A DNA stretch of 64,000 nucleotides, taken from the NCBI GenBank assembly GCA_044892505.1, contig CM097882.1, positions 12,462,001 to 12,526,000 on the forward strand, written 5' to 3'. A program made the translations under genes and the position numbers. Below the pieces are notes generated by a model that was not told the DNA's origin, made no database searches, and saw nothing but the letters and a program-made list of their open reading frames with translations. The stretch comes from Schmidtea nova. Taxonomy: Eukaryota. Shown in pieces: positions 5,457 to 43,010 of the stretch (position 1 is its first letter; each line of letters starts with the position of its first letter).

Positions 5457-6585
5457 TCGTTGGCATTATTTGTAAAATTTTATCTCTCTTACTCATCACA
5501 CTTTAATACGAAAATTATTTTGCCCTTCTCCTGTCGCAACAAATAAATATAGATAGAAGTGTCAATTGATGGCTCAATTGATAGACTCATGAGAGAACAT
5601 ATGAAATCTTGATGACTTATGCATTCGATATGGCATTATCACTCTACATTTTAATGTTTCGTATTCGTTGTTATAACTCATAGATCTTTGTCTACAGGGT
5701 TCTAAACATATTTTCTTCAAAAGAATATGTGAAAGCATTGGCATATGGGGTTCCCAACTTCTCCTTAGAGTGACGTCTGTTCAAGGCTTTCAAGGCGTTC
5801 ATGCAACATAATGTTATAAATTTTGGCATCGGTATATTTATTTAAGTAAAATAAAATAAAGTTTTAATTAAATATGATCCAAAGTAATCAGTCAAAAGAA
5901 ATCTAGGAAAAGATTTGTAATAATGTTGGGTTAGTAAAAATGACAATAAGGCTGAAAAAATTAGACAATAATACAAACAATTAAATAATTAACTAGGAAG
6001 AGAAATTATAAAATAAAATAAAAACTGAAATAGCATAGAATTGAGAAAATAATGCTAATTAAAACAAAATGATGAAAACAATATAGTTCTTGCAATGGAG
6101 CTCACCTGTCGATTTGCAGTCGGCTGTCATTCACAATATCAACGTAAATAAATAGGGTATTTACAGGTGCATGAATAGTAAGATTTTTATGTGCGTGTTG
6201 TGACCCTAGAGCGAAAGGGAACTCAGAGGAAAGATAAGCATCTGTATATTTTGACAACACGACCAACAATAATTTATTTTTTCTGCAAAAATTTGATACA
6301 TTAAATTGTGTCGATATATCTTATGCAAGTTTTATTGGCAGACTGATTTCGAGTTTATTTGGTTTTCGTCAGTACCATTGGTCAATTTCGAGTATAAAAA
6401 GTAAGCATATATTAGATGATAATTTATATGTTGGATTTTAGCATCAATGCAAAAATAATATTTCTTAATTAAAATGCTGGTGTGTTGGTTCGATGGACAA
6501 CTGAGATCATTTAGATGTTAAACGTTAGGGTGATCTCGCCAACATAAAAAACATTCCCCCGCTGACACCCATGATGTATCCCTAA

Positions 6586-6813
6586 CTACTCATCATGTTG
6601 GTGCAGTGTCAACGTTGTGAAATGACAAGGCAGGTGAGCAACCTTGCGGCTACTATTCCCTTGTTTATTCACGGGTCCACCACTACCGATAGAAGGTGTT
6701 TGTGGATTTCTTTCGGTCCCAATTATACGCTCTCTTATTGTCCTAGGGTGAATCAATTTTAGAGTGCCTACAATCTCAAATGAATCAGGTTTTACCTTAC
6801 ATTTAATTTCCAA
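6586..6813 (-). CDS. LTR-encoded 75-aa ORF of unknown function
   Basis: Identical translation in both LTRs (copy at 33310-33537); short, no motif. Confidence 0.3.
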   Translation of the reverse strand: MEIKCKVKPDSFEIVGTLKLIHPRTIRERIIGTERNPQTPSIGSGGPVNKQGNSSRKVAHLPCHFTTLTLHQHDE

Positions 6814-6857
6814 TCATACTTCAAGAAAACAAATCAAGTCATTTCATGAGAATACAT

Positions 6858-7421
6858 TTATTTACAATTTAACAAAACCGATGGTCGGATTACGTTCAAT
6901 AGTTCATGCTCGGAGAGTCCACTGAGCAGATCGACCTCAATGCCCAGGCGTTCGGCATAGGCTCGACGCTCTTGACGTTTCTTTGCTCCGAGGCGGTTCC
7001 GACGCTTTGTCCTCTGGGATCCCTTCGGAGTTATCGTTATCGACTCAGTAGTCGTTGTTGCGGTTGTCTCCGTTTCAGTTTGAGTACTGGTGGTGACTGC
7101 TATTGTTTTTACCCACTTATCGAATGTACTCGCCCTGATCCTTGTGCGTAACTGTTCCGTGATGAATTCTTGCGTCGAGGCCTTTAGGTAATTTGCCAAT
7201 TCCAATTTCAACGCTGCGACTTCTCTTGCCTGCTCTTCGGCTGCTTGATCTGCGCGATATCTCGCCTGTAGGATGGTCTTGACCCTCTCGGGGTTGAACC
7301 ATGTCGTTTTCACCCGTTGGTGTTCTTCGCTTAACTGACGTAAGCGACTCTCGAGGACTCTGGAACGGGCCTTGTGCTCGCGAGCCTCCTGTTTATAATT
7401 CCGTGTATCCTCAGCTTTCAT
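6858..7421 (-). CDS. LTR-encoded coiled-coil protein (187 aa)
   Basis: ATG-initiated, heptad-rich N-half and basic C-terminus. The 5' LTR copy (33582-34145) has TGG>TGA at 33837-33839. Confidence 0.55.
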   Translation of the reverse strand: MKAEDTRNYKQEAREHKARSRVLESRLRQLSEEHQRVKTTWFNPERVKTILQARYRADQAAEEQAREVAALKLELANYLKASTQEFITEQLRTRIRASTFDKWVKTIAVTTSTQTETETTATTTTESITITPKGSQRTKRRNRLGAKKRQERRAYAERLGIEVDLLSGLSEHELLNVIRPSVLLNCK

Positions 7422-7630
7422 GTCTAGAAAATCGGGTATTAATTTATGTCACGACAACCGTTTGTTTATCTATCCTTGTCTCTGTGTTAACACAATTATT
7501 CCTGATTCATACACTCATCCGCATGCATTCGTATATCAGAACAATAAATGTGCACTAAAACAAACAGATTTTATTTTTACAACAGGGTGTCATTAGTTTG
7601 ATCTTCGAGTTGATGGCCCTGGCCTATCCT

Positions 7631-8305
7631 TTACTGCAGGAACGATCGTAATTCTTGATCTGCGGGATTATCATCTCGTCGGATCCCGTTTGCGTGATAT
7701 AGCTCCGGGGATGGGTGCCAGCTCAGCTTGCCTTGGTGTATTAACACCTCCCACAAGCGGAGATCCTTGGGTTCCGGATGGCGATCCAACGTGACACTTC
7801 CGGGAGCGTTCGAATAGGATTGGACTTCCCCAGTGTCGCTACACCGAGGCCTGTCCAGCAGCAGGTATCCAAGATGATATAGCGATTGACCAGTCATCGC
7901 TTCCGAGCTTAACAACCATCGTGGCTGTCCGGATTCATCCAGGAATTGATAGAACCACTGTGTGGGTTTCTGTTCCGAAGGGCTCGAAGATGACGTCCAA
8001 TTTGCGTCTCCCTCCCATCGGAATTGTATTCGGAACGCGCAGGCTGGGACGTTAGCGGCCACGTTCATGTGCCGTCGCATCCATCGACGCAGATGTCGGT
8101 GCGCTAGCTCGGCGATTGGCCGTGGGGCGTCCTTCTCCCCTTGAATTTCGGTCATATATCTGTGATTGGCGACAGATCGGACCTGCCGTTTCCTTCGAGC
8201 GAGACGACTCTCCTTTGTCGCGGGCGGCGAGACCAATGGCGGATTCGAGAGTTTTTCGTGTTTCATACCTTCTTTCTGAATGAGATGATGCTTGATTTTA
8301 TTCAT
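7631..8305 (-). CDS. LTR-encoded 224-aa protein of unknown function
   Basis: ATG-initiated, GC-richer than its flanks, open in both LTRs (copy at 34354-35028). Basic NLS-like RLARRKRQ and a Trp-rich C-half. Confidence 0.65.
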   Translation of the reverse strand: MNKIKHHLIQKEGMKHEKLSNPPLVSPPATKESRLARRKRQVRSVANHRYMTEIQGEKDAPRPIAELAHRHLRRWMRRHMNVAANVPACAFRIQFRWEGDANWTSSSSPSEQKPTQWFYQFLDESGQPRWLLSSEAMTGQSLYHLGYLLLDRPRCSDTGEVQSYSNAPGSVTLDRHPEPKDLRLWEVLIHQGKLSWHPSPELYHANGIRRDDNPADQELRSFLQ

Positions 8306-9763
8306 CCATCATTAATTTTTATCGGTTATATATACTTAGTCAACTTCGTGAGTAGCAATTGGTTTTAAGTAGGCCTCACCCGTCCGGTGAGTTGGTTGCA
8401 TTCAGAATGACGAGCGATGTATGTAGGACGGTAGGTTGGTAGATCATACTCAGTTGAGTTGGTTTTAACTCCGCTTGTAAACTCAATTTATTAAATCGCG
8501 CATCAGCACATCACGGCTTACGATATTATTCTTATGTTTATTTTAACAGACATTCTCCGTTATTCACCATTCATCTCATCAATAACTACCAATGACCATC
8601 ATTCTCTGGGTGATTTGGGTGATTCCCTAAAATTGGGTTCATTATTTAGCATATTTCCATTTCATGTTCGAATGTGTGTTTATTCATAATGCTTAGCGTT
8701 GGTTAAATGCGCTTTATACCATACGCTGTTGATTTATCGTTTCACCGCCTATTATACGCACTACAATTATCCCTGTTGGAATCATGGTTTATATAAGGTT
8801 ATAGACACCCCATGTGCACACACCCCCTTCCCGATTACCAAATAGTTAGAAAACTTATAGTCCCGCCGCATCGGTACCTCATATAAGAATATGTTGTACC
8901 GAGAGGCCAAGAATCCGCCAGGCTGTTAGGCCTCCGGAAAAGTCCTTATTGATTTTAATATGAATAATAATTATGAGGGTTTAAGCTAATAATATAGAAC
9001 ACAACTCGAATTTACCTTTTATTTCCACTTCCAAGTTGTTTACAAGGTTCAATTGTCAAATTCACACTCAGTAATTTGGTAAAATTTTAACGACTTACAC
9101 TTGGTAAAACAATAATGACATTCCCAATACTGATTTGACTTCAGTATATATACTCATTTGGTGTTGTTGGTCAGCCAATCAGCATCGAGTATGTGTGTCT
9201 GTCTGGTCATTCTTTTGTGTTTGTCGGCTTTTTGCTGTCTAATTTAACTCAATGATTTGTTTGTTTAATCATGCGGTAAGTTTATTTTGGTATGATTTAA
9301 TTTTAATTTTATTTTTGTTTCAGGTCTTCGGTGATGTCCGCCTACCTGTTGTCATTTTCAGATTTTATCTGATTCGCATGGGTGAGTTTTTAAGATTTAT
9401 GTTATTCTGATTAATGCTTTATTTCTTTTAGATGTTACCGCTTATTTGCTACCTTTTGGTGTTTGTAATTTATTTTGTTGTTATTTTTGTATATTTATTT
9501 TATTGATTGTGTATTATTTTTCAGATGCTGCTCGATTCGGCTGGCCCAACATCACTCGGGGTCCCCTAAAATTGCGTCCCGCAATTACATGCATATACCT
9601 ACATCAACATACTTAAAAAGTTCGTGACAGAATTTACATTCCGAACCACATAAGGTGGTAGCTTTTATACACATTCATACAAAGTCACGCATTGTCATTG
9701 TCATGTTTATATTGTTTATGGTTTATACACAGTTCAATGTTTCTGGCTCATAAGGGTCGATTT

Positions 9764-10361: not shown

Positions 10362-11093
10362 TTACACATCCGTTTCCTCTGGTTCATGGAACCCTTCATC
10401 TTGGAGCTCTATTGGTGGTAGTGGTATAAACGGTAACCACACCACTCTGCTTCTCCACATTGCAATTTCATCTTGATACGTTCGAGAGATTTGTATCTCT
10501 TCATCTAACAGATACTCCATATAATCTGATTGTTCGCTCAGAGTTTCGATTTGTCTTTCCATTTCTTCCACTTTTCTCTTCAGGGCTTCTACTTCTGTTG
10601 GTTCGGTTTCTACTTCTATGGTTTCTTTCTCTGCTTTCAGGGTTATTATTTGTTCTTTCAGCTCCTCGTTTTCTTTCGTCAAATTCGTTATGTTTTCCTC
10701 ATAAGCTCGGTTTGATTCCCCATGTCTTTCCTTCACTGCTTTCAACTCTATTTTCTTTTGGGTCAACACCCCTTGATAACCATTTACATCTCTTTCCAGA
10801 CTTTCTTTTTCCCTGATCAACTTTTGTCTTTCCGCTTCCTCTTTCTGTCTGATACCTCGCATTTCTCCATTTATCATCTGTATTTGCCATTGCGTTTTCT
10901 TTAATTCCTTTGCCTGTTCTCGAATAAATCGCTGCCGTTTTCGACTCCATTCTTTGTTTGTCTGTTCTTGTCGTTTTCTCTGTTCCAATTCCTCTTTCAA
11001 TTCGTCTATCTCTTGATACAGTTTCCAATCTTCGCTGTATGCTGTCTTTCTGATTAACTCTTTGGCTTCTTTATATACTCGTTTCGACTCCAT
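10362..11093 (-). CDS. Accessory coiled-coil protein, 243 aa, ending ...EPEETDV
   Basis: Long E/K/Q-rich heptad ORF with the same purine-rich coding bias as pol. Confidence 0.7.
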   Translation of the reverse strand: MESKRVYKEAKELIRKTAYSEDWKLYQEIDELKEELEQRKRQEQTNKEWSRKRQRFIREQAKELKKTQWQIQMINGEMRGIRQKEEAERQKLIREKESLERDVNGYQGVLTQKKIELKAVKERHGESNRAYEENITNLTKENEELKEQIITLKAEKETIEVETEPTEVEALKRKVEEMERQIETLSEQSDYMEYLLDEEIQISRTYQDEIAMWRSRVVWLPFIPLPPIELQDEGFHEPEETDV

Positions 11094-11122
11094 CTTCCAA
11101 TGTCTCGCTTGAGCTTTGATCG

Positions 11123-11521
11123 CTAGTATTTTATCTCCATCTTTTCCTCTTGTTTCTCCCTCTCTTCCCTTCGCGTTTTCATCAAGTTTTTGTAATGTTC
11201 CGCTTGTTTTCTCATCAACTGATAGGTCTCTTCTATCTTCTGTCGACTTCGTGAATTCGTTCCTTTTAGCTTCTCTATTTGTGTTGTCAGTTGTACTATC
11301 TCCTTATTTGCTTCCTCGAGTTCTAATTGATATAACTCCATTCGTCTCTCGCATTTTAGTTTCTCGTAGAAATTGTTTGTCATCACTTCGTGTAGTTCTC
11401 TGTTTTTTTGTTCCACTTCCACTTTACATCTCCTTTCGATTTCTCTTTCTATTGCTTCTCGTTCGTTCGACATCTCGCTTCTAGTTTCCTCTTCGATTAC
11501 ATGTTCGTTTACGTTTTCCAT
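11123..11521 (-). CDS. Accessory coiled-coil protein, 132 aa
   Basis: ATG-initiated E/K/R-rich heptad ORF in the accessory cluster. Confidence 0.6.
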   Translation of the reverse strand: MENVNEHVIEEETRSEMSNEREAIEREIERRCKVEVEQKNRELHEVMTNNFYEKLKCERRMELYQLELEEANKEIVQLTTQIEKLKGTNSRSRQKIEETYQLMRKQAEHYKNLMKTRREEREKQEEKMEIKY

Positions 11522-11645: not shown

Positions 11646-13022
11646 TCACTGCTGTACTTGCTTTCTTTTCGATTTCCAACTCCACGTATAGGTTGTCGTC
11701 GTACAACATTTCCCACTTTTTTGGTGTGGTATGAATTTTGGTTCTCCTGTCACTATTGAACATTCGGTGGTTGGTCTTTTGTAAGCTTCGTGCTTACCAT
11801 CGATTTTGAATATTCTCACAATCGTTTCTTTAGAGTTTTTGACCCTCATTATCGCCTTTGTCTCTAGCGGCCATTCTAATATGTCGTCGTAACCACCTTT
11901 ACACAACGCAAAGAATAATGACACATGCGTTTCCTTTCCTGGTCCATCTCCATTTGGATAAATTCTCATCCGAACTTTGTATCCGTTTTTCCACAGATAG
12001 AATGGTGGACTTGTTACCGACACTTGTCCTCCTGTTTTTGCTGTTGTGAACTTGTCGTTGAAGTTCTTGATTTTCCATACATATGGTGCAACCGGTAAAT
12101 TCTCGATATCCTCTGTATCTCGCATCCATATTTGATGTCGTACATTTACTTCTTTTACTAACGTCTCAATGACTTTGATTTTCTCCATCATTTTCTCTCT
12201 GGTGAGCTCAAATTGCTCTCTCGTTTCTAGTAACAGCTCCGTCATTATTCTCTGAGATTCGATTTCTTTTCCCAGCTTCTGTATGGTTTGCTCCATTTCG
12301 TTCAAATTTTCTGTTAGCATCACTGCGTGTTGTACCGTTTCAGTTTCCAAATGCTGTTTCATCTCTTTACTCGTTTTCTTTACTACGCATCCTTGTTTGT
12401 TCCATACGCACTTTCTTGGTCTTGACTCGCATTGTTCCCAATGTTCTCTCAACCTCACCTCTTCTCCGGCTCCACAATTACTTGGACAAATTCCTCTAAA
12501 TTTTCCGCACACTTTCTCTTCTGCTACATTGAGACGTTCTGTTTCGATTACTTCTCTCACTTCTTTTTGTTCACAGTATTGACATTCTATTATCTCTGCT
12601 TTGCACTCGTCCTTGTGATTTTTCAACTGCTTGATGGTTATCGTCTGTTGACACTTTTCACATATCGCTTTCTTATTTTCGCATTTCTCCAGATGTTGTC
12701 TTAGCTCGATTATTTGTTCTTTCCATTCGCATGGTTGGTTTATACACTCGGTTTTTATCTTCCAGATCTCCTTTTGTATTGCTTTGTCTGGTTTCGTCTC
12801 GTTGATTAGTAGTTTATCGTCACACTCTGGACACTTTCTTGTCTCACTTTCGCTCATTATTTGCAATATACATTTGGTGCACATCCTGCATCCACATTCC
12901 GTTTGTCTCGGTTTTAACAGTAAATTTTTACACTTTACACACGTCACATTTACTCCCCATTGTCGATTTTCTCCTCTTAGAATTTCGATTGTTTGGTAAT
13001 CTGCTTCGTTTTCTGCTCTCAT
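11646..13022 (-). CDS. TRAF-family protein (RING, TRAF zinc fingers, coiled coil, MATH/TRAF-C); frameshift in the last ~25 codons
   Basis: RING CVKC...ECGCRMCTKC...CPEC; Zn fingers CINQPCEW...HLEKC; MATH YVWKIKNF...SPPFY...GYKVRMRIYPNGDGPGKETHVSLFF...YDDILEWP. The alternative frame near 11720 gives KWEMLYDDNLYVELEI, the expected MATH end. Confidence 0.92.
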   Translation of the reverse strand: MRAENEADYQTIEILRGENRQWGVNVTCVKCKNLLLKPRQTECGCRMCTKCILQIMSESETRKCPECDDKLLINETKPDKAIQKEIWKIKTECINQPCEWKEQIIELRQHLEKCENKKAICEKCQQTITIKQLKNHKDECKAEIIECQYCEQKEVREVIETERLNVAEEKVCGKFRGICPSNCGAGEEVRLREHWEQCESRPRKCVWNKQGCVVKKTSKEMKQHLETETVQHAVMLTENLNEMEQTIQKLGKEIESQRIMTELLLETREQFELTREKMMEKIKVIETLVKEVNVRHQIWMRDTEDIENLPVAPYVWKIKNFNDKFTTAKTGGQVSVTSPPFYLWKNGYKVRMRIYPNGDGPGKETHVSLFFALCKGGYDDILEWPLETKAIMRVKNSKETIVRIFKIDGKHEAYKRPTTECSIVTGEPKFIPHQKSGKCCTTTTYTWSWKSKRKQVQQ

Positions 13023-13110
13023 TCTACAACAATATTTACATCAATCTCCCCATATTTTGATTTTTCTGGTTCTTTATTTACACGTATTTACACAATTTTC
13101 CGCTTATTCA

Positions 13111-19692: not shown

Positions 19693-20519
19693 ATACGTTC
19701 GAGAGATTTGTATCTCTTCATCTAACAGATACTCCATATAATCTGATTGTTCGCTCAGAGTTTCGATTTGTCTTTCCATTTCTTCCACTTTTCTCTTCAG
19801 GGCTTCTACTTCTGTTGGTTCGGTTTCTACTTCTATGGTTTCTTTCTCTGCTTTCAGGGTTATTATTTGTTCTTTCAGCTCCTCGTTTTCTTTCGTCAAA
19901 TTCGTTATGTTTTCCTCATAAGCTCGGTTTGATTCCCCATGTCTTTCCTTCACTGCTTTCAACTCTATTTTCTTTTGGGTCAACACCCCTTGATAACCAT
20001 TTACATCTCTTTCCAGACTTTCTTTTTCCCTGATCAACTTTTGTCTTTCCGCTTCCTCTTTCTGTCTGATACCTCGCATTTCTCCATTTATCATCTGTAT
20101 TTGCCATTGCGTTTTCTTTAGTTCCTTTGCCTGTTCTCGAATAAATCGCTGCCGTTTTCGACTCCATTCTTTGTTTGTCTGTTCTTGTCGTTTTCTCTGT
20201 TCCAATTCCTCTTTCAATTCGTCTATCTCTTGATACAGTTTCCAATCTTCGCTGTATGCTGTCTTTCTGATTAACTCTTTGGCTTCTTTATATACTCGTT
20301 TCGACTCCATCTTCCAATGTCTCGCTTGATCTTTGATCGCTAGTATTTTATCTCCATCTTTTCCTCTTGTTTCTCCCTCTCTTCCCTTCGCGTTTTCATC
20401 AAGTTTTTGTAATGTTCCGCTTGTTTTCTCATCAACTGATAGGTCTCTTCTATCTTCTGTCGACTTCGTGAATTCGTTCCTTTTAGCTTCTCTATTTGTG
20501 TTGTCAGTTGTACTATCTC
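19693..20519 (-). repeat. 827-bp near-identical copy of 10476-11302 replacing part of RT
   Basis: Same length and sequence as 10476-11302 with only two differences noticed. It sits between YIDD and GIQEFLGL, where ~65 RT codons are missing. Confidence 0.93.
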
Positions 20520-20529
20520 AATGTACTAG

Positions 20530-21815
20530 ATCAATAAATCGTCGATATACACCATTCATTGCTTTATGCCATGTGTTACGAAATTCATGCATCTCTGGAA
20601 TGATGCTGGCGCGTTTGTTAACCCAAACGGCATTTTCTTGAATTGGTACAGATCTCTTCCGATTGTGAATGCTGTCTTTTCTTTATCCTCGTCTTTCATT
20701 TTGATCTGCCAATATCCGCTTTTTAAATCTAGTGACGTGAAATAGGCTGCTCCTTGTAGCGTCAACAACATTTCGTTTATATCTGGCAGTGGGTACGTAT
20801 CTCTTTTCGTAACTGCATTCAATCGTCTGTAATCGATACAGAATCTCTGAGATCCATCCTTCTTTTTCACCATCACCACTGGGAATTGCCAGGGTGAGCA
20901 ACTAGGTTCGATGACCTTTGCGTCTAACATCTTTTGTACCTCTTCTTCTGCCAATGCTTTTTGAGCTTCTGCCAGTTTGTATGGTCGTAATGCGATTGGC
21001 GTTTCGTCCGTCAACGGTATCGTGTGTAATGTTACATCGCATGTTCCTAAATCCAAATCTGATGCTGCGAATATGTCTTTATATTCCATCAATAGTTTCT
21101 GTAGCTGTTCTTTTTGTCGTTCGTCTAACAACACACTGTTGATTTTCCATGGAAATTCGTCACTGCTTTTCTCATTCTTGTCTGGTATCTCGATTTCGGA
21201 CATGGGTGTCAATTTACCCAATCTTTCATTTTTATATATTATTTTGTCCTCTTCGTCGACATTTACCAGATTAATTGGTATCTCACCTTCTTGGTTTATT
21301 GTGACTAATTCTCTTGCCATTGGAAATTCTTTTTTTGCTTCGAACTTCTTACTGGGTTCGAATATCATATCTCCCTTTATTGTCGAATCGATCTTGACAT
21401 AGCACATCATTTCATGTCTCGCTGGTACTACTATTTGTTCCGCACTTGCCACTTTAACTTTCATTCTGCAGATTTTCCCTGTTCTGTCTTTTAGTTTCAT
21501 TGCTCCTAGATCGATTACGATTTCCTTGAACAGGTCTGGCATCAGGTCAGTTCCAATAATACATGGTACACTCATCGATGGTATTACAGCGATGTACGTG
21601 TTAATTTCTGCCTTTCGTTGTTTAATTTTTACAAACCATCTTCCGGCTATTTCTACTGTCTCTTGACTGCACGCGATTACATGAACATTCGTCTTCTCGA
21701 TTTCTCCTTGGTTTTTCTCTGGTATATAGTTGATATCGATTGCCGAAATATTCGCGCCTGTATCGATCGTAGCTTCGATTTCTCTTCCGTTTATTTCTAT
21801 GGTTGTTGTTAAAAT
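20530..21815 (-). CDS. pol: Aspartic protease and reverse transcriptase (N-terminal two-thirds) of the giant element
   Basis: IEATIDTGANISAI; RPYK, SPWQFPVVMVKKKDGSQRFCIDYRRLN, DLKSGYWQI, KMPFGLTNAPASFQR. YIDD at 20538-20549 just after an in-frame TGA. Confidence 0.97.
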
Positions 21816-22329: not shown

Positions 22330-24195
22330 ACCACCATCTTCCAATTCACTTTCTTTTCTCTCTTGTAGATATCAAAACACGCTAACATTTGCGTTATTAT
22401 CACTCTGACGATTTTTATTATCAATATAACACCCAGTATTCCAGCCATCATTTGTCCGAATATCAGGAATCTTCCCCACATTGCTTTCATCATATTTTCC
22501 GTGGCTTTCTTGAAATGTGCCGGTGATAACAGTAGTTCATAATTCGTTCCTCCCGTTATCGTTACGATATTTGACAGTAATGCTTCTCTTCTTGTCGGGA
22601 ATAATATATTCTGTCTTGCTGCTTCCAGATCTTTTGGACTATAGATTCCGTTGTTTGAGACATCTACGTCGCTGAATTGTCTATCCTTCGATAACTGCAT
22701 TAGCTCGAATTCTCTTGGTGCTATTACTTCGGCTCTTGCTAGGAACATTACCCATTTGCCATCTGGCTTCTGATAAAGCGGTCCGGACGCATTACTACAG
22801 TTGAATGGATTTGGTTCAAACCCTGGTGGATTGATGATTCTCGTCACCGGTTGAACGTATCGTACTTTTCCTTTATAATCGATTTCTAATTCGTTTGTGC
22901 ATGTTCCAGGTTTCAACTGCGTTGTTGCTGCTAGCGGCGCGTGTGTCTTTTCACAAATGTATACATACATTGCCTCTCCAACCTCTCTTCCGAAATGTCC
23001 TTCCCTCAGTGGTAATAACGGCATCGCGCTATCTGGATTCGTAATCGCTACGGCCTACTTTGTCTTTAATATCTCTCGGTTCAGTATACAATCGTTATTT
23101 ATCAGATCATAGTACACTTTTTGCAATGAGGCTTGTCCTCTATGGAATAAGAAATCCATTTTATTATTCACATACAAGTGTAGCTTGATATCCATTGTGT
23201 CGATCTTGGGTTTCGCATTCGGCACTTCTTGCTTTGACACGTATATTCCTGGGTAGTTCGTTTCGTATACCGTTGTACTACACTTAAGGGTTGCTTTCCC
23301 TTTTATGAATCTCAATCCCACATCTTGATTTGTGGTTATCAACACTGTTGGTGTGGTTCTCATTTCTATCCGTTTTTCTCTATGATCTCGCTTCAATTGT
23401 CTTTTATTCTCTAAAGCCTCCTTGAGATGCTTTGCTCTAGCTTTGTCATCATCATCTTCTTCCTGGAACGTTTTTCCTTGAATTTCGTCGAACTTTGCTT
23501 CTTGTAGCAGTTGTAATTGACATTCGTTCACTTTCGGTTTATACACCAATGTTGACATTCCCGTTTGACACATGCTCCTGTCAATTTTACACATGGATAA
23601 CGTTTTCATTTCTCCTGTTGTCGGTTCGAAGAATGCTTCGTAGCTTTTCAGTTCGACTATATACGTATCCATCACCACTAAGTTGGTTGCAGGTACTCCG
23701 AATATTGGGTAGGTTTCTCCTTGACAATATCCTTCTCCTCCCGTAATCCGTCCTGCTACATAATACGTCTGCTGTAGCATCATTCCTGGCTTTCCTTTTA
23801 TCTTGATTTTATCTCTTGTTGTTACTTCTCCGTGTTTAAATAATGCTTCGCAGTCTTCTCCTTGCAACACGATTGGTTCTCTTTCCGTTCCTGGCATGAC
23901 AATTGCTGAATAATGTCCTCTCCCACAATAGAATGCAAATCTCGTCTTCTGCACCTTGCATTCATTCACCATTGTCTTTATTAGTTCTGCTTCTTGATAC
24001 ACGTGGTACCATTGTTCCTTTTTAATCTCTTTTAACTCTACTGGAGTTGCATCTTTGCATTGCTCCGTACCTCTCAATGAATACTTTTCTCCTAACTTCA
24101 TTTGATCACAATCAAATACTTCAAATGTTGTTACACCTTCTGTGCTTAACAACCATACTAACATCATCATGATTATCGAGTTAAGATTCAACGTC
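22330..24195 (-). CDS. env: Envelope glycoprotein, chuvirus-like/gB-type, embedded in the pol frame upstream of protease (one in-frame TAG at 23055-23057)
   Basis: Hydrophobic signal SIIMMMLVWLLSTEG; FEVFDC..YSL..EQC, ECKVQKTRFAFYCG, GEAMYVYIC, VQPVTRII, GIYSPKDL..ILFP and WGRFLIFGQMMAGILGV follow the pattern I recall for chuvirus/Pao-associated glycoproteins. Furin-type REKR; C-terminal TM. Confidence 0.82.
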
Positions 24196-25901
24196 GATCT
24201 TCCGTTTCCTTGCATCGTTTGTCTATTCTCCATTTCTCTCAATACTCCTTCCAGTTTCTTTCTCATCACGTTTGAACCTTCTTTTGTCTGGTTCTCTTTT
24301 ATGAACTTTTCCCATCCTCCTTTTCTGAGGATATAGGGTTCAATTTCTTTCTCGATAATCATCGCCGTATTTTTAATATGTCTTCCCATCGGACTTGACT
24401 TCGGACTCCCTCGGCTTAGCGTTAGCAAATTGTATATTGTATACGAGATTGCCACTAGATATTTGCTGTCTGTTTCTGCTCCATTAAGTAGCTTTTTTAT
24501 TAACATCGTGGTTCCTTGCCAATCTAGATGATTCGATTTTGTTTTTGCCTTTATCAATTCTGGCATGATCGGTGCTATTGCATTGTGTAGCATCTTTGCC
24601 TTTGTACTAGGTTCGTTTATCCGCCACAAATTCTTTAATTCCGGGTCGATTATCGCTAACACATCCATTATCGTTTTGGTGAGCCATTCTTCTCCTTGGC
24701 AGGCTTGATTCTCCTCTTTTCCTCTGATTTCTGCGATTTTGTCAAGTTTCTTCAAGCAAATCTCCCATTGCTCTTGTCTCCTTTCTTCCCTTGTCTTTGA
24801 GATTGCTGTTGTTGGGTCTATCTTTGGTCTTCCTCTTGGTCGTTTTTCCATTCCAGTTCCGGTTTCTACGAATCTCGCTGCTCTTCCGGTTTCTTCTGTA
24901 ACATCTCTTCCTTCGTTTGCTCGTTGTTCTAACCATCTTTCCATTTCTTGGGTAAACTGTGGTTGTTCTTGCTCGTCTTCCGAATCGTTTACCATTTCTA
25001 TGACTACCTCCTGTTCCACTCCTTGATCGTCGATTTCTGCTGGTGACGTTATTGGCATCTCTATTATTCTGTCAAAAATATTCGCAGTTGGTTTTTGAGT
25101 CAACTTTGTTAATTCTTCTATTGCTTCGTCACTGTCTGTTAGTATCTCGTCGACGTCATATGCTTCTGGCGGTGTTCTCTCTCTCGTTTTTATTGGTGTT
25201 GTCCTTGCTTGTCCCGAACTTGTTCCTGGGGTCATTGTTGACTTTATCGGACTTGGTGTACTCATGCTTCCTTTCGGTTTCTTTTCCTCTTTCAGCTTCA
25301 GTGGTTGACCCACTATTTGTGCCACTGTTAGCGTATTCACTAAATCCAATTGTACTGGTGTCAGCCAGATTTCCAAATTATTATCCAACGATCGTCCTTG
25401 ATGTTGCAGGTGGAATGGTAGTTCGTACATCAGTTTCTCTTTAACGCTTTTCACTTTTTCTGTAAGCATCACCCAAAACTCTTCTTTTCTCTGATTCGGA
25501 TACATTATCCTCAAATGTATTTTCTGTGGCGTTTCTTCCGCAAACTCTTTGTTTCTCCACTTTTTTATTACATGGTCTAGTTGCTCTGGACACCACTCAT
25601 TAATTCTCTTGTATTCTGCTATCACTTTAGCTGCTTTTCTCAAGTTCGTTATGTCTTCTCCATTTGCGATTATAAATTCTGCTAAGCCTTTTATTGTTTG
25701 TCTTTTTCCCCGAGTATTCCTTCTCAACAACTCGGTTAATTCGTTCGTTTTCTGTTTTTCTAATTCTGCCCATATTACTGCAGTTTCTGGTCCGTCTAAG
25801 TCCGTTGGTAATAACCTCTTTGTTACTATACATATCCGTTTCGTATTCGGTTCATATCTGTCTTCTTCTTCTGGATCTTCTTCATACACGCCTCTTTTCA
25901 C
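23055..25901 (-). CDS. Polyprotein segment: UBL3 (~25325-25525), acidic linker, AT-hook (KRPRGRPK, ~24822-24846), Bcl-2-like domain, env N-half
   Basis: 948-aa open frame, in frame with flanking ORFs across single TAG codons. Confidence 0.85.
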   Translation of the reverse strand: MKRGVYEEDPEEEDRYEPNTKRICIVTKRLLPTDLDGPETAVIWAELEKQKTNELTELLRRNTRGKRQTIKGLAEFIIANGEDITNLRKAAKVIAEYKRINEWCPEQLDHVIKKWRNKEFAEETPQKIHLRIMYPNQRKEEFWVMLTEKVKSVKEKLMYELPFHLQHQGRSLDNNLEIWLTPVQLDLVNTLTVAQIVGQPLKLKEEKKPKGSMSTPSPIKSTMTPGTSSGQARTTPIKTRERTPPEAYDVDEILTDSDEAIEELTKLTQKPTANIFDRIIEMPITSPAEIDDQGVEQEVVIEMVNDSEDEQEQPQFTQEMERWLEQRANEGRDVTEETGRAARFVETGTGMEKRPRGRPKIDPTTAISKTREERRQEQWEICLKKLDKIAEIRGKEENQACQGEEWLTKTIMDVLAIIDPELKNLWRINEPSTKAKMLHNAIAPIMPELIKAKTKSNHLDWQGTTMLIKKLLNGAETDSKYLVAISYTIYNLLTLSRGSPKSSPMGRHIKNTAMIIEKEIEPYILRKGGWEKFIKENQTKEGSNVMRKKLEGVLREMENRQTMQGNGRSTLNLNSIIMMMLVWLLSTEGVTTFEVFDCDQMKLGEKYSLRGTEQCKDATPVELKEIKKEQWYHVYQEAELIKTMVNECKVQKTRFAFYCGRGHYSAIVMPGTEREPIVLQGEDCEALFKHGEVTTRDKIKIKGKPGMMLQQTYYVAGRITGGEGYCQGETYPIFGVPATNLVVMDTYIVELKSYEAFFEPTTGEMKTLSMCKIDRSMCQTGMSTLVYKPKVNECQLQLLQEAKFDEIQGKTFQEEDDDDKARAKHLKEALENKRQLKRDHREKRIEMRTTPTVLITTNQDVGLRFIKGKATLKCSTTVYETNYPGIYVSKQEVPNAKPKIDTMDIKLHLYVNNKMDFLFHRGQASLQKVYYDLINNDCILNREILKTK
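24295..24695 (-). CDS. Bcl-2-like domain within the polyprotein
   Basis: BH2-like EPYILRKGGWEKFIK (cf. WIxxNGGWxxF), preceded by a degenerate BH1-like WQGTTMLIKKLLNGAETDSKYLVAI; all-helical pattern; canonical NWGR absent. Confidence 0.68.
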
Positions 25902-33192: not shown

Positions 33193-33198
33193 AATTTA

Positions 33199-36100
33199 TG
33201 CTAGTGTTTTGGTTCGATGGACAACTGAGATCATTTAGATGTTAAACGTTAGGGTGATCTCGCCAACATAAAAAACATTCCCCCGCTGACACCCATGATG
33301 TATCCCTAACTACTCATCATGTTGGTGCAGTGTCAACGTTGTGAAATGACAAGGCAGGTGAGCAACCTTGCGGCTACTATTCCCTTGTTTATTCACGGGT
33401 CCACCACTACCGATAGAAGGTGTTTGTGGATTTCTTTCGGTCCCAATTATACGCTCTCTTATTGTCCTAGGGTGAATCAATTTTAGAGTGCCTACAATCT
33501 CAAATGAATCAGGTTTTACCTTACATTTAATTTCCAATCATACTTCAAGAAAACAAATCAAGTCATTTCATGAGAATACATTTATTTACAATTTAACAAA
33601 ACCGATGGTCGGATTACGTTCAATAGTTCATGCTCGGAGAGTCCACTGAGCAGATCGACCTCAATGCCCAGGCGTTCGGCATAGGGTCGACGCTCTCGAC
33701 GTTTCTTTGCTCCGAGGCGGTTCTGACGCTTTGTCCTCTGGGATCCCTTCGAAGTTATCGTTATCGACTCATTAGTCGTTGTTGCGGTTGTCTCCGTTTC
33801 AGTTTGAGTACTGGTGGTGACTGCTATTGTCTTTACTCACTTATCCAATGTACTCGCATTGATCCTTGGGCGTAACTGTTCCGTGATGAATTCTTGCGTC
33901 GAGGCCTTTAGGTAATTTGCCAATTCCAATTTCAACGCTGCGACTTCTCTTGCCTGCTCTTCGGCTGCTTGATCTGCGCGATATCTCACCTGTAGGATGG
34001 TCTTGACCCTCTCGGGGTTGAACCATGTCGTTTTCACCCGTTGGTGTTCTGCGCTTAACTGACGTAAGTGACTCTCAAGGACTCTGGAACGGGCCTTGTG
34101 CTCGCGAGCCTCCTGTTTATAATTCCGTGTATCCTCAGCTTTCATGTCTAGAAAATCGGGTATTAATTTATGTCACGACAACCGTTTGTTTATCTATCCT
34201 TGTCTCTGTGTTAACACAATTATTCCTGATTCATACACTCATCCGCATGCATTCGTATATCAGAACAATAAATGTGCACTAAAAAAACAGATTTTATTTT
34301 TACAACAGGGTGTCATTAGTTTGATCTTCGAGTTGATGGCGCTGGCCTATCCTTTACTGCAGGAACGATCGTAATTGTTGATCTGCGGGATTATCATCTC
34401 GTCGGATCCCGTTTGCGTGATATAGCTCCGGGGATGGGTGCCAGCTCAGCTTGCCTTGGTGTATGAACACCTCCCACAAGCGGAGATCCTTGGGTTCCGG
34501 ATGGCGATCCAACGTGACACTTCCGGGAGCGTTCGAATAGGATTGGACTTCCCCAGTAGCGCTACACCGAGGCCTGTCCAGCAGCAGGTATCCAAGATGA
34601 TATAGCGATTGACCAGTCATCGCTTCCGAGCTTAACAACCATCGTGGCTGTCCGGATTCATCCAGGAATTGATAGAACCACTGTGTGGGTTTCTGTTCCG
34701 GAGGGCTCGAAGATGACGTCCAATTTGCGTCTCCCTCCCATCGGAATTGTATTCGGAACGCGCAGGCTGGGATGTTAGCGGCCACGTTCATGTGCCGTCG
34801 CATCCATCGACGCAGATGTCGGCGCGCTAGCTCGGCGATTGGCCGTGGGGCGTCCTTCTCCCCTTGAATTTCGGTCATATATCTGTGATTGGCGACAGAT
34901 CGGACCTGCCGTTTCCTTCGAGCGAGACGACTCTCCTTTGTCGCGGGCGGCGAGACCAATGGCGGATTCGAGAGTTTTTCGTGTTTCATACCTTCTTTCT
35001 GAATGATATGATGCTTGATTTTATTCATCCGTCATTAATTTTTATCGGTTATATATACTTAGTCAACTACGTGAGTAGCAATTGGTTTTAAGTAGGCCTC
35101 ACCCGTCCGGTGAGTTGGTTGCATTCAGAATGACGAGCGATGTATGTAGGACGGTAGGTTGGTAGATCATACTCAGTTGAGTTGGTTTTAACTCCGCTTG
35201 TAAACTCAATTTATTAAATCGCGCATCAGCACATCACGGCTTACGATATTATTCTTATGTTTATTTTAACAGACATTCTCCATTATTCACCATTCATCTC
35301 ATCAATAACTACCAATGACCATCATTCTCTGGGTGATTTGGGTGATTCCCTAAAATTGGGTTCATTATTTAGCATATTTCCATTTCATGTTCGAATGTGT
35401 GTTTATTCATAATGCTTAGCGTTGGTTAAATGCGCTTTATACCATACGCTGTTGATTTATCGTTTCACCGCCTATTATACGCACTACAATTATCCCTGTT
35501 GGAATCATGGTTTATATAAGGTTATAGACACCCCATGTGCACACACCCCTTTCCCGATTACCAAATAGTTAGAACACTTATAGTCCCGCCGCATCGGTAC
35601 CTCATATAAGAATATGTTGTACCGAGAGGCCAAGAATCCGTCAGGCTGTTAGGCCTCCGGAAAAGTCCTTATTGATTTTAATATGAATAATAATTATAAG
35701 GGTTTAAGCTAATAATATAGAACACAACTCGAATTTACCTTTTATTTCCACTTCCAAGTTGTTTACAAGGTTCAATTGTCAAATTCACACTCAGTAATTT
35801 GGTAAAATTTTAACGACTTACACTTGGTAAAACAATAATGACATTCCCAATACTGATTTGACTTCAGTATATATACTCATTTGGTGTTGTTGGTCAGCCA
35901 ATCAGCATCGAGTATGTGTGTCTGTCTGGTCATTCTTTTGTGTTTGTCGGCTTTTTGCTGTCTAATTTAACTCAATGATTTGTTTGTTTAATCATGCGGT
36001 AAGTTTATTTTGTTATGATTTAATTTTAATTTTATTTTTGTTTCAGGTCTTCAGTGATGTCCGCCCACCTGTTGTCATTTTCAGATTTTATCTGATTCGC

Positions 36101-36274
36101 ATGGGTGAGTTTTTAAGATTTATGTTATTCTGATTAATGCTTTATTTCTTTTAGATGTTACCGCTTATTTGCTACCTTTTGGTGTTGGTAATTTATTTTG
36201 TTGTTATTTTTGTATATTTATTTTATTGATTGTGCATTATTTTTCAGATGCTGCTCGATTTGGCTGGCCCAACA
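33199..36274 (-). repeat. 5' LTR (3076 bp) of the giant element
   Basis: Direct repeat of 6475-9551; adjacent to the PBS. Confidence 0.95.
35837..35902 (-). promoter_or_regulatory. Candidate LTR promoter (reverse CCAAT 35898-35902, TATATATA 35868-35875, Inr-like TCATT ~35837-35841)
   Basis: Motif order fits a minus-strand Pol II promoter ~430 bp into the LTR; spacing is slightly long. Inference only. Confidence 0.3.
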
Positions 36275-39091: not shown

Positions 39092-40054
39092 TTACAAAAA
39101 TCTGGTTTTCTCTTTACCTTGACATTCAACCTTAACAACTCTGACCTTTCCATCACTACCTGGAATCAGTTCCTTAATTCTTACTAACGGCCATCGACCT
39201 TCTAAAATATTAGGTTCTAAAACCCAAACAACGTCACCTACTTTGACTTCTCTGTTTTCTTTCCACCATTTTTTCTTGTACCCCACATTGGTACGAGTTC
39301 TTTCTTCCACCTTTCCCAAAAATGGTTCACTATCTCCAAAATTCTTTTCCATCTTCTTTGGTAATCTACTCCTTCATTAGGGGTGATATCTTCTGTTCGA
39401 TCCAGTCCAGGCCATTTTGATAAAATAAAGTCATTTTGAGTTAGTGCAATATCTTCTTTGCCGTCACTGCATTGCACTGTCAAAGGGCGATAATTCAATA
39501 AGCCTTCTACTTTTATTAACACTGTATTCAGTTCTTCATCCGAAATGTCAGCCTCTCCAATAATTATTTTCATAGCTCTCTTTGCTGATTTTATTAAAGA
39601 CTCGAATATTCCTCCAAAATGCGATGCCGAAGGTGGATTAAATATCCATCTAATTTGATTAGCCAACAGTACTTTACTCATTTTATAAGAATCTATAACA
39701 AACTCTTGAACTTCTCCAGTTTCCCCAACAAAATTTGTTCCGTTGTCCGATAAGATCATTGACGGCTTTCCTCTTCTTCCTATGAATCTCATTAATGCTC
39801 GTACGAAAGCATCTGTATCTAATGAATATGCCATCTCACAATGAACCGCTCGCGTTTGTAAACAAGTGAATAAACAAAGATATCTTTTCTGCCTCACTTT
39901 ACCCCTTCCCTGAATTGTTTCAAATGGTCCTGCAAAATCTACAGCAACCTTTCCAAAGATTTGCATTGGTTCATCAAATCTGAATGAAGGTAGTGGAGCC
40001 ATTATTTGTTCCATCCCTTTAGCTCTTCTTTTTTTACATTCGTGACAATTATTT
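39092..40054 (-). pseudogene. pol: BEL/Pao integrase and C-terminal DUF5641-like tail
   Basis: VAVDFAGP, ILSDNGTNF, HFGGIFESLIKSAK; WPLVRIKELIPGSDGKVRVVKV in a shifted frame. Confidence 0.92.
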
Positions 40055-42286
40055 TCACACTCTTTGATACTGTCTGGCCCTTAATATCCAATATTCCTTA
40101 TTCATGTCACTCAATATATGGTTCACCCCAGCATAATGATTTCCTCTCCTATGATACTCTTTAATGATTAGTCTGGTGACCCAACTTTTATCACTCAGAA
40201 TAACTGGGTACCTTGCTTTAATTGTTAAAAATTCTGCATTAACTAGACGGCTCTTAGATCGAATAATTCTATCTTTATCTAAAATCGGATTCAGTTTTCT
40301 CAACTTACTTTTTTCCTGAACGGATTTGCTTTCATTCAACCTTTTGACTTCTTCTTTAAAATGCTTCTCTTGATCTGCCTTGATTATTCTTATTTCAATA
40401 TCTTCGATTTCTTCGGATTTCAGTTGACCCTTTCTTCTACCTTCAATTTGACACCTACAATTGTTAATATATCTGACTACCAAAGCATATACACACTTTA
40501 ACCTCACCCAGTCCGAATAAGATTCTGGTTCGAAACAATTCACACACGATTTAAAGTTCCGATTTTTTACTTCTGCTTTATTTGTGTACATGACCACTTT
40601 CTTAATTTCTTTACATATTGTCGGCATGTCGATGAATTCAGTCTTAGGCCATTCGTCTTTTTTTAACTGGAGAAATGTCGGTCCTTTTAACCACTCCTTT
40701 TTAACTTGCAGGTCCCTAGCAGACATTCCTCGTGAAATAAGATCTGCAGGATTTTCCTTTGTAGGCACATGCTTCCACTGGTTTGCTGATGTTTCAGACT
40801 GTATGCTTCCAACTCTATTACTCACAAATTGTTTGAATTTTCGCGCATGCTGTCGTATCAAATATAGCACATCCATGCTATCAGTCCAGAATGTAACTTC
40901 CCTAACATCGTAATTTATCGCTCTCGATATCTTTTTTGCCAATTTTAATCCGACACAAGCTCCTAGCAATTCCATCCTCGGAATACTAACCATTTTAACT
41001 GGAGCGACTTTTGACTTAGCCGCTATAAATCTAGTTTCTATGTTCTCTTTAGTTTGCTCTCTTAAATACGCTACCGCTCCGTAAGCTTTTTCAGAGGCAT
41101 CGGTAAATACATGAATAATCCATACGCTATTCACAGAACAAATTAAACATATAGGTATTTTAAACTCATTTAAATTCACTGCTTCTTCAAACCAACATTT
41201 TGCACTCATCTCTATTTCAATTGGTAATGGATCATCCCAATTGATTCCGGACATCCAAGTTGATTGCATTATCATCTTTCCTCTTACTACAAAGGTACTC
41301 AAAAACCCTAACGGATCGAATATTCTGGCTATCCAACTTAATAAAGTTCTTTTTGTTAATTTATTTGATTGAAATGGTTTCACCGAAAACTCAAAATAGT
41401 CTGGTCCTGATAACCATTTTAATCCTAACGTTTTCACTGTCATCCTTCCTTCCTCTTCAATACTCAATTTTGAAGCTCGATCTTTCAATGGAATGCTTTC
41501 CAACAATTTTTCAGAATTAGTTATCCACTTTTTTGCTTTCATTCCGGCCGTTTTCCAAATTATTTCTAAATCATTTTTTAACTCAAATGCCTCTACCTCT
41601 GATTCCACGGAATCTAAACTATCGTCCATGTAAGTGGATTTAATAACTGTTTCAGCAGCTCTTGGAAATTTATTCTCTAAATTTCTTGCATTCTCTTGAG
41701 TCACATACTGTGCTAAGTACGGAGAGGCATTTATTCCAAACACTAATCTATTAAATTCAAAAACTTTAATTTTCGCTTCATCTTTCCATAAAAATCTCAA
41801 ATATTTCCTATCTTCCTTAGCCACTGCTATTTGCAAAAACATTTCGGCAATATCGCATACGATTGCAATTCTATGTTTCCTAAACCGTAGCAAAACATCA
41901 AACAAGTCGTTTTGTAATTTTGGCCCTGTTTCTATTATATCATTCAAACAAGTTCCCCAATTTTTGGCAGCTGCGTCAAACACAATTTTTATTTTTGTCG
42001 ATTCTCTATCTCTTTTTATAACTGAGAAGTGTGGTAACAACCATTTATTTTCGGATTCCTCTGCCTTAGTAATTTCCCTTATATAATCTTTTCTTTCATG
42101 TTCTGCTATTACTTTTGAATACTCCTTTTTTAATATTGCATCTTTACTAAATCGTTCTTGTAAACTTTTCAATCTTTTTTCTGCCATGTTTCTATTTAAA
42201 ATCAATTCTGGTATTTCTTTTTTCCAAGGCAAACTAACTTCATATCTATTATCTTTATAATTTAATTGATTTTTCGTCTTATCCAT
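40055..42286 (-). pseudogene. pol: BEL/Pao reverse transcriptase and Pao RNase H
   Basis: KIVFDAAAK, DIAEMFLQI, RLVFGINASPY, YMDD, FTDASEKAYGAVAY, SIPRMELLGA, FWTDS, ENPADLISRG. Confidence 0.96.
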
Positions 42287-42509
42287 AATTAATTTATCTT
42301 TTGTTGAAAGTGCGATTGGGGTTTCTTAAACTTCCTCAAGCTCCCAGAATTTCAGAATCTGATAATTTATATTTCCTTCCTTAATAAAGTAAGCACGCAC
42401 AAAATTTGTCTGGTGATTTAATGGCATCCCAATTCCTGGTCCACCTACACAAGTCTACCCTAATGGCGTGCGTCTTGCAATAGGTTCATTTTCATTTCCA
42501 GTAATTTCT

Positions 42510-42962
42510 TCAATAGTTTTGGAGGTCTAAATAATCTACTCCAATCAAGACGTCAACTGTCTGCTTTCCATATAAGGACGGGAACGGAATTCCCTTTAAA
42601 TGAGGCCACGAGTGAGCTACTTTTGTCCAATCAATTACTTTCATATTCCCTGTAATTGATCTAAGAGCCAATGCTTTAAATATTTTAACTATTTTCCCTC
42701 CAGTATCCTTCAGGATCATTTCAACACTTCGATCTGGTATTCCCTCAGTTCTTCCACCAATAACCTTTATCGTTGTATTTATATCGCCTCCATCGAGTTT
42801 CAGTTCTGATGCAACTCTTTCGCTTACAAAGCTTGCCGTGCTAGCATCGTCTAACAGTGCGTTCAAAAATAATTGTTTGCCATTACTCTCTAAGATAATA
42901 GGAACAGTTCTCAAACTGAACAACTTTGTTGAATTTTTGACTTGTTTTTTCCCGATTTCCAT
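42510..42962 (-). pseudogene. BEL/Pao aspartic protease region
   Basis: LRTVPIIL...NALLDDASTASFV...DVLIGVD. Confidence 0.85.
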
Positions 42963-43010
42963 TAATGTTACTTGATTTTCTGGAGCCTTTAGAGTTGAAA
43001 AGTTATGTAA

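What the first reader, a model, noticed from the sequence alone, without database searches (positions are those of the whole stretch)
24130..24695. Bcl-2-like domain whose tail anchor may double as the Env signal peptide
Seen: the BH2-like YILRKGGWEKF is followed ~35 residues later by the only hydrophobic stretch (SIIMMMLVWLLSTEG) before the mature Env start (..TFEVFDC). Known: Bcl-2 proteins are C-tail-anchored; flavi- and alphavirus polyproteins use internal signals cut by signal peptidase. Inferred: signal-peptidase cleavage would leave a membrane-anchored cytosolic Bcl-2-like protein, send Env into the ER lumen, and return PR-RT-RH-IN to the cytosol after the Env TM. BH1 NWGR is not conserved, so it could be anti-apoptotic, a decoy or inactive.
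Basis: partly seen in the sequence, partly recalled or inferred. Interest (0 to 1): 0.85.

Follow-up and report, generated by a model that had tools for sequence, protein, structure and literature searches.

The report
Retrotransposon Bcl-2 tethered by envelope signal
A giant, envelope-carrying retrotransposon encodes a divergent relative of the cell-death regulator Bcl-2 just before its envelope protein, as already published; the short hydrophobic stretch between them likely acts as an internal signal peptide that would send the envelope into the ER and would leave the Bcl-2-like part tethered on the cytosolic side.

Summary
The stretch lies in a ~29.8-kb Burro-type Ty3/gypsy LTR element (minus strand) whose sister copies encode one ~5,090-aa Gag…Bcl-2–Env–PR–RT–RH–IN–ANK polyprotein. 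A BCL2-like motif followed by in-frame Env between gag and pol is already in print (PMC6431247). The window's domain misses Pfam Bcl-2, but sister subfamilies hit it, profile comparisons link them, and an AlphaFold model (pLDDT 86; alignment partly seeded with host Bcl-2 halves) matches Bcl-2 folds (TM 0.54–0.75). An unseeded model failed. The hydrophobic segment is the only one before Env. In 13 of 13 subfamilies it has signal-peptide anatomy: ~11-residue core, 5–8 polar residues, small residue at −1 before the conserved Env start. It looks like a cleavable signal, not a classic tail anchor. Anchoring of the Bcl-2 domain would be the default result of cleavage but is untested; release by the element's protease or signal-peptide peptidase (as for HCV core) is a real rival. 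BH1 NWGR is replaced by TDSK, so canonical BH3 binding is doubtful. Verdict: known element and domain; the shared signal/anchor topology is a plausible new detail not found in my literature searches.

The parts
24297..24698 (-). Bcl-2-like helical domain (8 predicted helices; BH1 columns TDSK, BH2-like YILRKGGW)
   Evidence: HHalign to sister subfamilies 95%, those to host Bcl-2 exons 97%; AF2 pLDDT 86; Foldseek 44 of 44 listed rows Bcl-2 family
24180..24296 (-). Variable linker (about 40 aa, charged) between BH2 and the signal
   Evidence: 26-72% identity between subfamilies, the least conserved block in most pairs
24126..24179 (-). Predicted internal signal peptide: core SIIMMMLVWLL (24179-24147), c-region STEGVTT (24146-24126); predicted cut before F at 24125
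   Evidence: Only hydrophobic stretch before Env; same anatomy in 13 subfamilies; PF24664 position 4 aligns at its second residue
22452..24125 (-). Env ectodomain, Monjiviricetes/chuvirus-like fusion glycoprotein (one stop in this copy)
   Evidence: PF24664 E 1.4e-30 and 9.9e-28; 14 Cys in 558 aa
22395..22451 (-). Env transmembrane helix, followed by a basic KREKK patch and a weaker hydrophobic stretch
   Evidence: KD19 2.5; second stretch KD19 0.9 in A/B, up to 1.6 in E/F
20556..21806 (-). Aspartic protease and start of RT
   Evidence: PF00077, PF00078
17928..19566 (-). RNase H and integrase (broken frames)
   Evidence: PF17917, PF17921, PF00665
15597..17927 (-). Ankyrin-repeat region of the polyprotein
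   Evidence: PF12796
27863..29548 (-). Gag with CCHC knuckles (in frame with the rest in a sister copy, frameshifted here)
   Evidence: PF00098; sister stretch L033 open for 3,300 aa from gag to integrase
11646..13040 (-). Accessory ORF, TRAF-like (RING, zf-TRAF, MATH)
   Evidence: PF21355 E 5e-24
6474..9551 (-). 3' LTR (about 3.1 kb)
   Evidence: 98.7% identical to 33198-36274
33198..36274 (-). 5' LTR

Best explanation
This is the Bcl-2-like domain of a Burro-type retrotransposon polyprotein, and the hydrophobic stretch behind it is likely an internal, cleavable signal peptide that would thread Env into the ER lumen and would leave the Bcl-2-like domain, at least at first, tethered to the cytosolic face of the ER, where it likely dampens host cell-death or stress signalling. 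Shown: domain order, single hydrophobic segment, conservation of its anatomy, purifying selection, Bcl-2 homology by profile chain. Predicted: the Bcl-2 fold. Inferred: recognition of the internal signal during translation, signal-peptidase cut between VTT and FEVFDC, stop-transfer at the Env TM returning PR-RT-RH-IN to the cytosol, release of the Bcl-2 domain from upstream Gag/ubiquitin-like parts by the element's protease, and function. Because BH1 lacks W, G and R, I expect a non-canonical mode (poxvirus A52/B14-like or ER-Bok-like) more than classic BH3 sequestration.
For: Order and single hydrophobic segment. 107 of 107 Env-motif stretches with 260 open residues upstream carry the domain (131 examined, 24 broken and dropped; some loci are the same place; the profile was built from such sequences). 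Signal anatomy: KD11 2.45-3.38 core, 5-8 residues to the cut, -1 residue A/G/S/T in 13 of 13 subfamilies, -3 small or aliphatic in 12 of 13 (12, subfamily D read); background 21% and 42%; about five independent lineages. Same architecture in a subfamily 18% identical. Bcl-2 homology: PF00452 hits 34 of 46 members at E<=0.1 and is over cut-off in subfamily C; a profile without Pfam-picked sequences finds Bax at E 0.003; HHalign 95%, 97%, direct 66%. AF2 five models 82-86 pLDDT, pTM 0.82; Foldseek prob 1.00, TM 0.70 to Bfl-1, 0.75 to Bcl-xL over the whole domain, including the half given no host sequences. dN/dS of the core 0.05-0.24 in the 4 of 8 pairs where dS is not saturated. In one recombinant subfamily the signal travelled with the Bcl-2 side, not with Env. 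A second signal-like segment with a G-E-A c-region follows the ankyrins. Precedent: HCV core anchored by the E1 signal (PMC5402940 abstract).
Against: No cleavage, localisation or activity data; no SignalP/DeepTMHMM available. The window protein alone and its clade alone find no Bcl-2 in Pfam or PDB. The Burro-only AF2 run was poor (pLDDT 65, others 43-50) and did not give the Bcl-2 topology: TM 0.16-0.27, rmsd 12-17 A, VIA best Z 5.3 to unrelated chains. The successful run had 9 host half-domains in its alignment, so it is partly steered, and no Foldseek E reached 0.001. Sequence matches cover only helices 4-8. The hydrophobic core is short for a stable anchor (KD19 only 1.52). T at -1 is a weaker site in the window family (recalled rule). 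E/F subfamilies have a second post-Env hydrophobic stretch up to KD19 1.6 that complicates the topology. The signal sits about 1,800 residues into the chain.
Confidence: 0.5

Rival explanations
1. The segment is an ordinary internal Env signal and the Bcl-2 domain is then freed into the cytosol, by the element's protease cutting the linker or by signal-peptide peptidase cutting the leftover signal, as for flavivirus capsid and HCV core. The signal would not serve as a lasting anchor.
For: Long, poorly conserved, charged linker (31-50 aa); short core; HCV core is released this way (abstract); anchorless viral Bcl-2-fold proteins that inhibit NF-kB exist (PMC2494871, listing; their lack of an anchor is recalled).
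Against: No conserved cleavage motif seen in the linker across subfamilies (by eye); Bcl-2 stays directly before the signal in every open copy examined, at a spacing like a tail anchor's.
Confidence: 0.27
2. Env is made mainly from a spliced or internally initiated message that puts the signal near the N-terminus; its position behind Bcl-2 in the polyprotein is incidental.
For: Env of Drosophila errantiviruses and retroviruses comes from spliced RNA (recalled); the window family has three Met in the linker.
Against: Subfamilies C, E and I have no Met in the linker; the frame is kept open from gag through Env to pol in sister copies, so full-length translation must pass this segment anyway.
Confidence: 0.1
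3. The segment is an uncleaved signal-anchor, so Env has two membrane spans and the Bcl-2-fold domain remains its cytosolic N-terminal part, serving as a matrix-like link between Gag and the envelope.
For: Some gB-type errantivirus ectodomains are predicted to be flanked by two TMs (PMC13524379 passage); degenerate BH1 and BH3 fit a structural role; Gag lies upstream in the same chain.
Against: Small residues at -1 and -3 and a 5-8 residue c-region are kept in all lineages, which an uncleaved anchor does not need.
Confidence: 0.1
4. The domain is not a Bcl-2 relative or is a dead relic.
For: No direct hit for the window clade; first model failed.
Against: Profile chain, second model, purifying selection.
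Confidence: 0.03

Closest known systems
Burro / GYPSM1 giant Ty3/gypsy elements of planarians (Grohme et al. 2018, not held; described in PMC6431247, passages read)
   Same: ~30 kb, single ~5,000-aa polyprotein, BCL2-like motif followed by mononegavirus-like Env in frame between gag and pol, ankyrin and MATH/TRAF domains.
   Different: The passages read name the motif only: no fold test, no signal peptide or topology. Here TRAF/MATH is a separate ORF 3' of the polyprotein; no BIR or dUTPase hit in the 26 ORFs scanned. Sequence identity to named Burro elements not tested.
GAG-ENV-POL errantiviruses with HSV gB-type Env in Platyhelminthes, Nematoda, Bryozoa (PMC13524379, passages read)
   Same: Env between gag and pol; ectodomain flanked by a signal peptide and TM or by two TMs; chuvirus-like glycoprotein.
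   Different: Main text has 0 occurrences of 'Burro' or 'Bcl'; elements with LTRs over 14 kb apart were excluded from its LTR calls. Class III fold not tested here.
HCV core-E1 junction and flavivirus C-prM junction (PMC5402940 and PMC7601889, abstracts read)
   Same: An upstream cytosolic protein ends in the signal peptide of the next envelope protein and is anchored by it after signal-peptidase cleavage.
   Different: There the upstream protein is the capsid and is later released; here it is a captured host-type regulator in a retroelement. Works-like analogy only, no homology.
Cellular and viral Bcl-2 proteins (Bfl-1/A1, Bcl-xL, NRZ; vaccinia A52/B14)
   Same: Predicted eight-helix fold, BH2 GGW, hydrophobic segment C-terminal to BH2.
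   Different: No NWGR, no G-D in the BH3 position, Tyr for the first BH2 Trp, embedded in a polyprotein, anchor built like a cleavable signal. The review on viral Bcl-2 (PMC11209288, passages) covers dsDNA viruses and has 0 occurrences of 'retrotranspos'.
Atlas virus (nematode belpaovirus, PMC9094657, passages read)
   Same: LTR element whose Env is part of one polyprotein with predicted TMs and cleavage sites.
   Different: Gag-Pol-Env order, class II phlebovirus-like Env, BEL/Pao group; no Bcl-2 mentioned in the passages seen.

Membership tests
Burro giant Ty3/gypsy elements | LTR element of 25-30+ kb | tested here: met
   LTRs 6474-9551 and 33198-36274, 98.7% identical
Burro giant Ty3/gypsy elements | One ~5,000-aa polyprotein with PR-RT-RH-IN order | tested here: met
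   Domain order; more than 20 of 150 listed copies have open frames of 5,075-5,114 aa; this copy is broken
Burro giant Ty3/gypsy elements | BCL2-like motif then Env in frame between gag and pol | tested here: met
Burro giant Ty3/gypsy elements | Ankyrin and MATH/TRAF accessory domains | tested here: met
Burro giant Ty3/gypsy elements | BIR and dUTPase-like motifs | tested here: inconclusive
   No Pfam hit in 26 ORFs; the paper used HHpred
Burro giant Ty3/gypsy elements | RT groups with named Burro elements | not tested
   No Burro reference sequence was on hand
Bcl-2 family | Eight-helix Bcl-2 fold | tested here: met
   Predicted only: (alignment seeded with host helices 4-8); unseeded run failed
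Bcl-2 family | Sequence homology (PF00452) | tested here: met
   Indirect for the window clade; direct for sister subfamilies; window protein itself no hit
Canonical pro-survival Bcl-2 | BH1 NWGR | tested here: not met
   TDSK in the window; no Burro row of 26 has NWGR; one broken subfamily-D copy reads NWDR
Canonical pro-survival Bcl-2 | Binds BH3 peptides and protects from apoptosis | not testable with these tools
   Needs assay
Tail-anchored protein | ~20-residue TM at the true C-terminus, inserted after translation | tested here: not met
   Internal segment, 11-residue core plus polar c-region; could become C-terminal only after cleavage
Cleavable (internal) signal peptide | n/h/c anatomy with small residues at -3 and -1 | tested here: met
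   13 of 13 at -1, 12 of 13 at -3; rule recalled, no predictor run
Cleavable (internal) signal peptide | Cleavage and translocation of the downstream chain | not testable with these tools
   Needs microsome assay or N-terminal sequencing

The most novel reading that the evidence does not exclude
A retroelement has spliced a captured Bcl-2 in front of a captured RNA-virus glycoprotein so that one helix does both jobs: it is the Env signal and the permanent ER anchor of an active Bcl-2-fold inhibitor, making one death- or immunity-suppressing molecule per Env, and until the protease acts it also holds Gag at the membrane where Env sits.
Probability: 0.3. Interest if true: 0.75.

Novelty: new variant of a known kind. 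Interest (0 to 1): 0.45.

Why it matters
Viral Bcl-2 proteins are known from large DNA viruses; Burro elements carry one in a retroelement with over a thousand Env-motif copies in this genome (1,246 pattern matches, 0 in the control). How a gag-env-pol polyprotein sorts itself across the ER membrane has not been worked out in the papers I could search. The conserved signal gives an exact, cheap test, and a co-translationally anchored Bcl-2 would be a new way to place this fold on a membrane and a handle on how these giant elements meddle with host cell death.

Tried and rejected
Single-sequence searches of the domain found nothing useful: Pfam, PDB, ESM Atlas best 0.80 hypothetical, 5.8-billion-protein searches 0 hits in three tries, representatives 2 repeat-driven chance hits. 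So no relative from another species was obtained; all comparison rests on G000. First AF2 model and its three fold searches were uninformative. A VIA search of the second model could not be run, so its fold match rests on Foldseek alone. Sequencing runs: no RNA holder listed; the four runs laid were contigs of unknown kind and say nothing on splicing or expression. Rejected: 'DWQG' as BH1 (alignments put BH1 twelve residues later). Grohme et al. 2018 was not held, so its figures and supplements may say more on the domain; supplements of PMC13524379 were not read. Literature searches with no paper on this topology: 'LTR retrotransposon + Bcl-2 + env + polyprotein + signal peptidase' 0 papers; Burro searches. 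Complex prediction was not run (no host BH3 partner could be chosen on evidence); no tree was built (about 70 alignable residues).
Full report
Setting. The finding lies on the minus strand of a ~29.8-kb LTR element: LTRs at 6474-9551 and 33198-36274 are 98.7% identical. Pfam gives gag zinc knuckles, a Monjiviricetes fusion glycoprotein (PF24664), protease, RT, RNase H, integrase, ankyrin repeats and a separate TRAF/MATH ORF, in that order. This copy is broken by stops, a gag frameshift and an 827-nt insertion in RT. A search of the own genome scored 150 of 1,187 candidates; 139 are 79-100% identical and more than 20 rows have open frames of about 5,090 aa. A sister stretch is open for 3,300 aa from gag to integrase. 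An Env-motif pattern matches 1,246 places, 0 in the control.

What is in print. PMC6431247 (passages read) describes planarian Burro elements: over 30 kb, a 4,873-5,140-aa polyprotein, a BCL2-like motif noted by Grohme et al. 2018, and Env between BCL2 and protease, called the first in-frame env between gag and pol. PMC13524379 (passages) reports GAG-ENV-POL elements with gB-type Env in flatworms, with ectodomains flanked by signal plus TM or by two TMs, and does not mention Burro or Bcl. PMC8532177 (passages) shows BURRO1 is transcribed when PIWI is lost. So the domain and its neighbour are known. My searches found no paper on the shared signal; Grohme et al. was not held. I file the element as Burro-type on architecture; the host and identity to named Burro elements were not tested.

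The observation. PF24664 begins to match at its second residue, so the profile of this glycoprotein family includes the segment at its N-terminus.

Is it Bcl-2? The window protein alone finds nothing, nor does its clade. But the same slot in sister subfamilies hits PF00452: 34 of 46 members at E<=0.1, subfamily C over the cut-off. A four-sequence profile containing no Pfam-picked sequence finds Bax at E 0.003 and Bcl-xL next; larger profiles reach 2.6e-6 and 2.2e-7. HHalign links the window clade to the others over 115 columns (95%), the others to host Bcl-2 exons (97%), and the window clade to the host directly (66%); the matches cover helices 4-8 only. AlphaFold on a 179-aa Burro-only alignment gave pLDDT 65 and no Bcl-2 topology: Foldseek ranked Bcl-2 proteins in 42 of 43 listed rows but at TM 0.16-0.27, the viral library and VIA gave nothing clear. 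A second run on the 134-aa core, with 26 Burro rows and 9 host half-domains, gave eight helices at pLDDT 86, pTM 0.82, all five models 82-86; 44 of 44 listed Foldseek rows are Bcl-2 family, prob 1.00, TM 0.54-0.75, E 0.0014-0.0097. That run is partly steered, but the N-terminal half had no host rows and still aligns. The core is under purifying selection (dN/dS 0.05-0.24 in 4 of 8 pairs; dS saturated in the rest). I put Bcl-2 ancestry and fold at about 0.95.

Is it canonical? BH1 reads TDSK; none of 26 Burro rows has NWGR. PMC5691656 (passages) notes that the Arg-Asp salt bridge is a hallmark of BH3 binding and that mouse Boo with SWSQ binds none; PMC11209288 (passages) notes that DPV022 lacks BH motifs yet binds some. 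Vaccinia A52 and B14 use the fold against NF-kB (PMC2494871, listing). With TRAF and ankyrin domains in the same element, a non-canonical inhibitor is my lean; this is inference.

Signal or anchor? In 13 subfamily representatives (12, D) an 11-residue core of KD 2.45-3.38 ends 5-8 residues before the conserved [FLM]xx[FY]DC Env start; the -1 residue is A, G, S or T in all, the -3 residue small or aliphatic in 12. Background is 21% and 42%; with about five independent lineages the -1 result has odds near 0.0004 by my arithmetic. Signal identity between subfamilies (50-78%) is at least that of the linker (26-72%) in all 8 pairs. This is signal-peptide anatomy by the recalled -3,-1 rule, unlike the host tail anchors seen in L061 and L064. 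Three subfamilies have no Met in the linker, which argues against separate initiation. Env has one strong TM followed in the window clade by KREKK; a weaker stretch follows (KD19 0.9, up to 1.6 in other subfamilies), which I read as membrane-associated rather than spanning, since Pol must be cytosolic (inference). All 107 open Env-motif stretches of 131 carry the Bcl-2 domain upstream (not independent of the profile). In a recombinant subfamily the signal moved with the Bcl-2 side. A second signal-like segment later in the polyprotein suggests the trick is reused.

Mechanism. Inferred: the signal is recognised during translation, Env enters the lumen and is cut off before FEVFDC, the Env TM returns Pol to the cytosol, and the Bcl-2 domain is left with the signal as a C-terminal ER anchor, the same orientation as a tail anchor. 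HCV core shows both that this happens and that it can be undone by signal-peptide peptidase (PMC5402940 abstract; PMC7601889 abstract). I estimate internal cleaved signal about 0.8, lasting anchoring given that about 0.6. No expression evidence was obtained.

Verdict. Real, conserved and well supported as a Bcl-2-like domain plus internal Env signal in a known kind of element. The dual-use topology is a sound, testable addition, not a new system. Interest 0.45.

Noticed in passing
window 15533-15477, 15071-15015 and 13830-13774 (minus); sister stretch L034:2403-4715: After the ankyrins the polyprotein has two similar hydrophobic segments (the first with a G-E-A c-region), fibronectin-III-like repeats (Atlas 0.85, a lead only) and a TM followed by basic residues: likely a second internally signalled cell-surface protein.
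   Followed up: partly
L031, L032, L117, L131, L152 versus window; L126: Recombinant subfamily: Bcl-2 and signal ~70% nucleotide-identical to the window family but Env 91-100% identical, the switch falling within ~30 nt of the predicted mature Env start; L126 pairs the same Bcl-2 type with another Env start.
   Followed up: partly
window 19693-20519 and 10476-11302: An 827-nt duplicate (825 identical) of 3' accessory sequence sits inside the RT of this copy.
   Followed up: no
window 24845-24825: AT-hook/NLS-like KRPRGRP motif just upstream of the Bcl-2 domain, also in subfamily C.
   Followed up: no
window about 26350-26100 and 25520-25350 (minus): Two stretches that look ubiquitin-like by eye; PMC6431247 notes a SUMO-like motif before BCL-2. 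No Pfam hit.
   Followed up: no
window 11646-13040 (minus): Near-complete TRAF-like ORF (RING, zf-TRAF, MATH) inside the element.
   Followed up: no
L036-L044, L047, L055, L057, L061, L064: Host-like Bcl-2 exons in G000; L061 and L064 end in a hydrophobic tail plus RK and stop, a conventional tail anchor for contrast.
   Followed up: partly
window 39238-43940 (minus) and 51346-55596 (plus): A BEL/Pao element and an ordinary gypsy element lie beside the giant element; 11-nt tandem array at about 49830-51050.
   Followed up: no
L153:850-1254: Very divergent subfamily with NFW for GGW and the BH1 glycine retained (SKGK).
   Followed up: no
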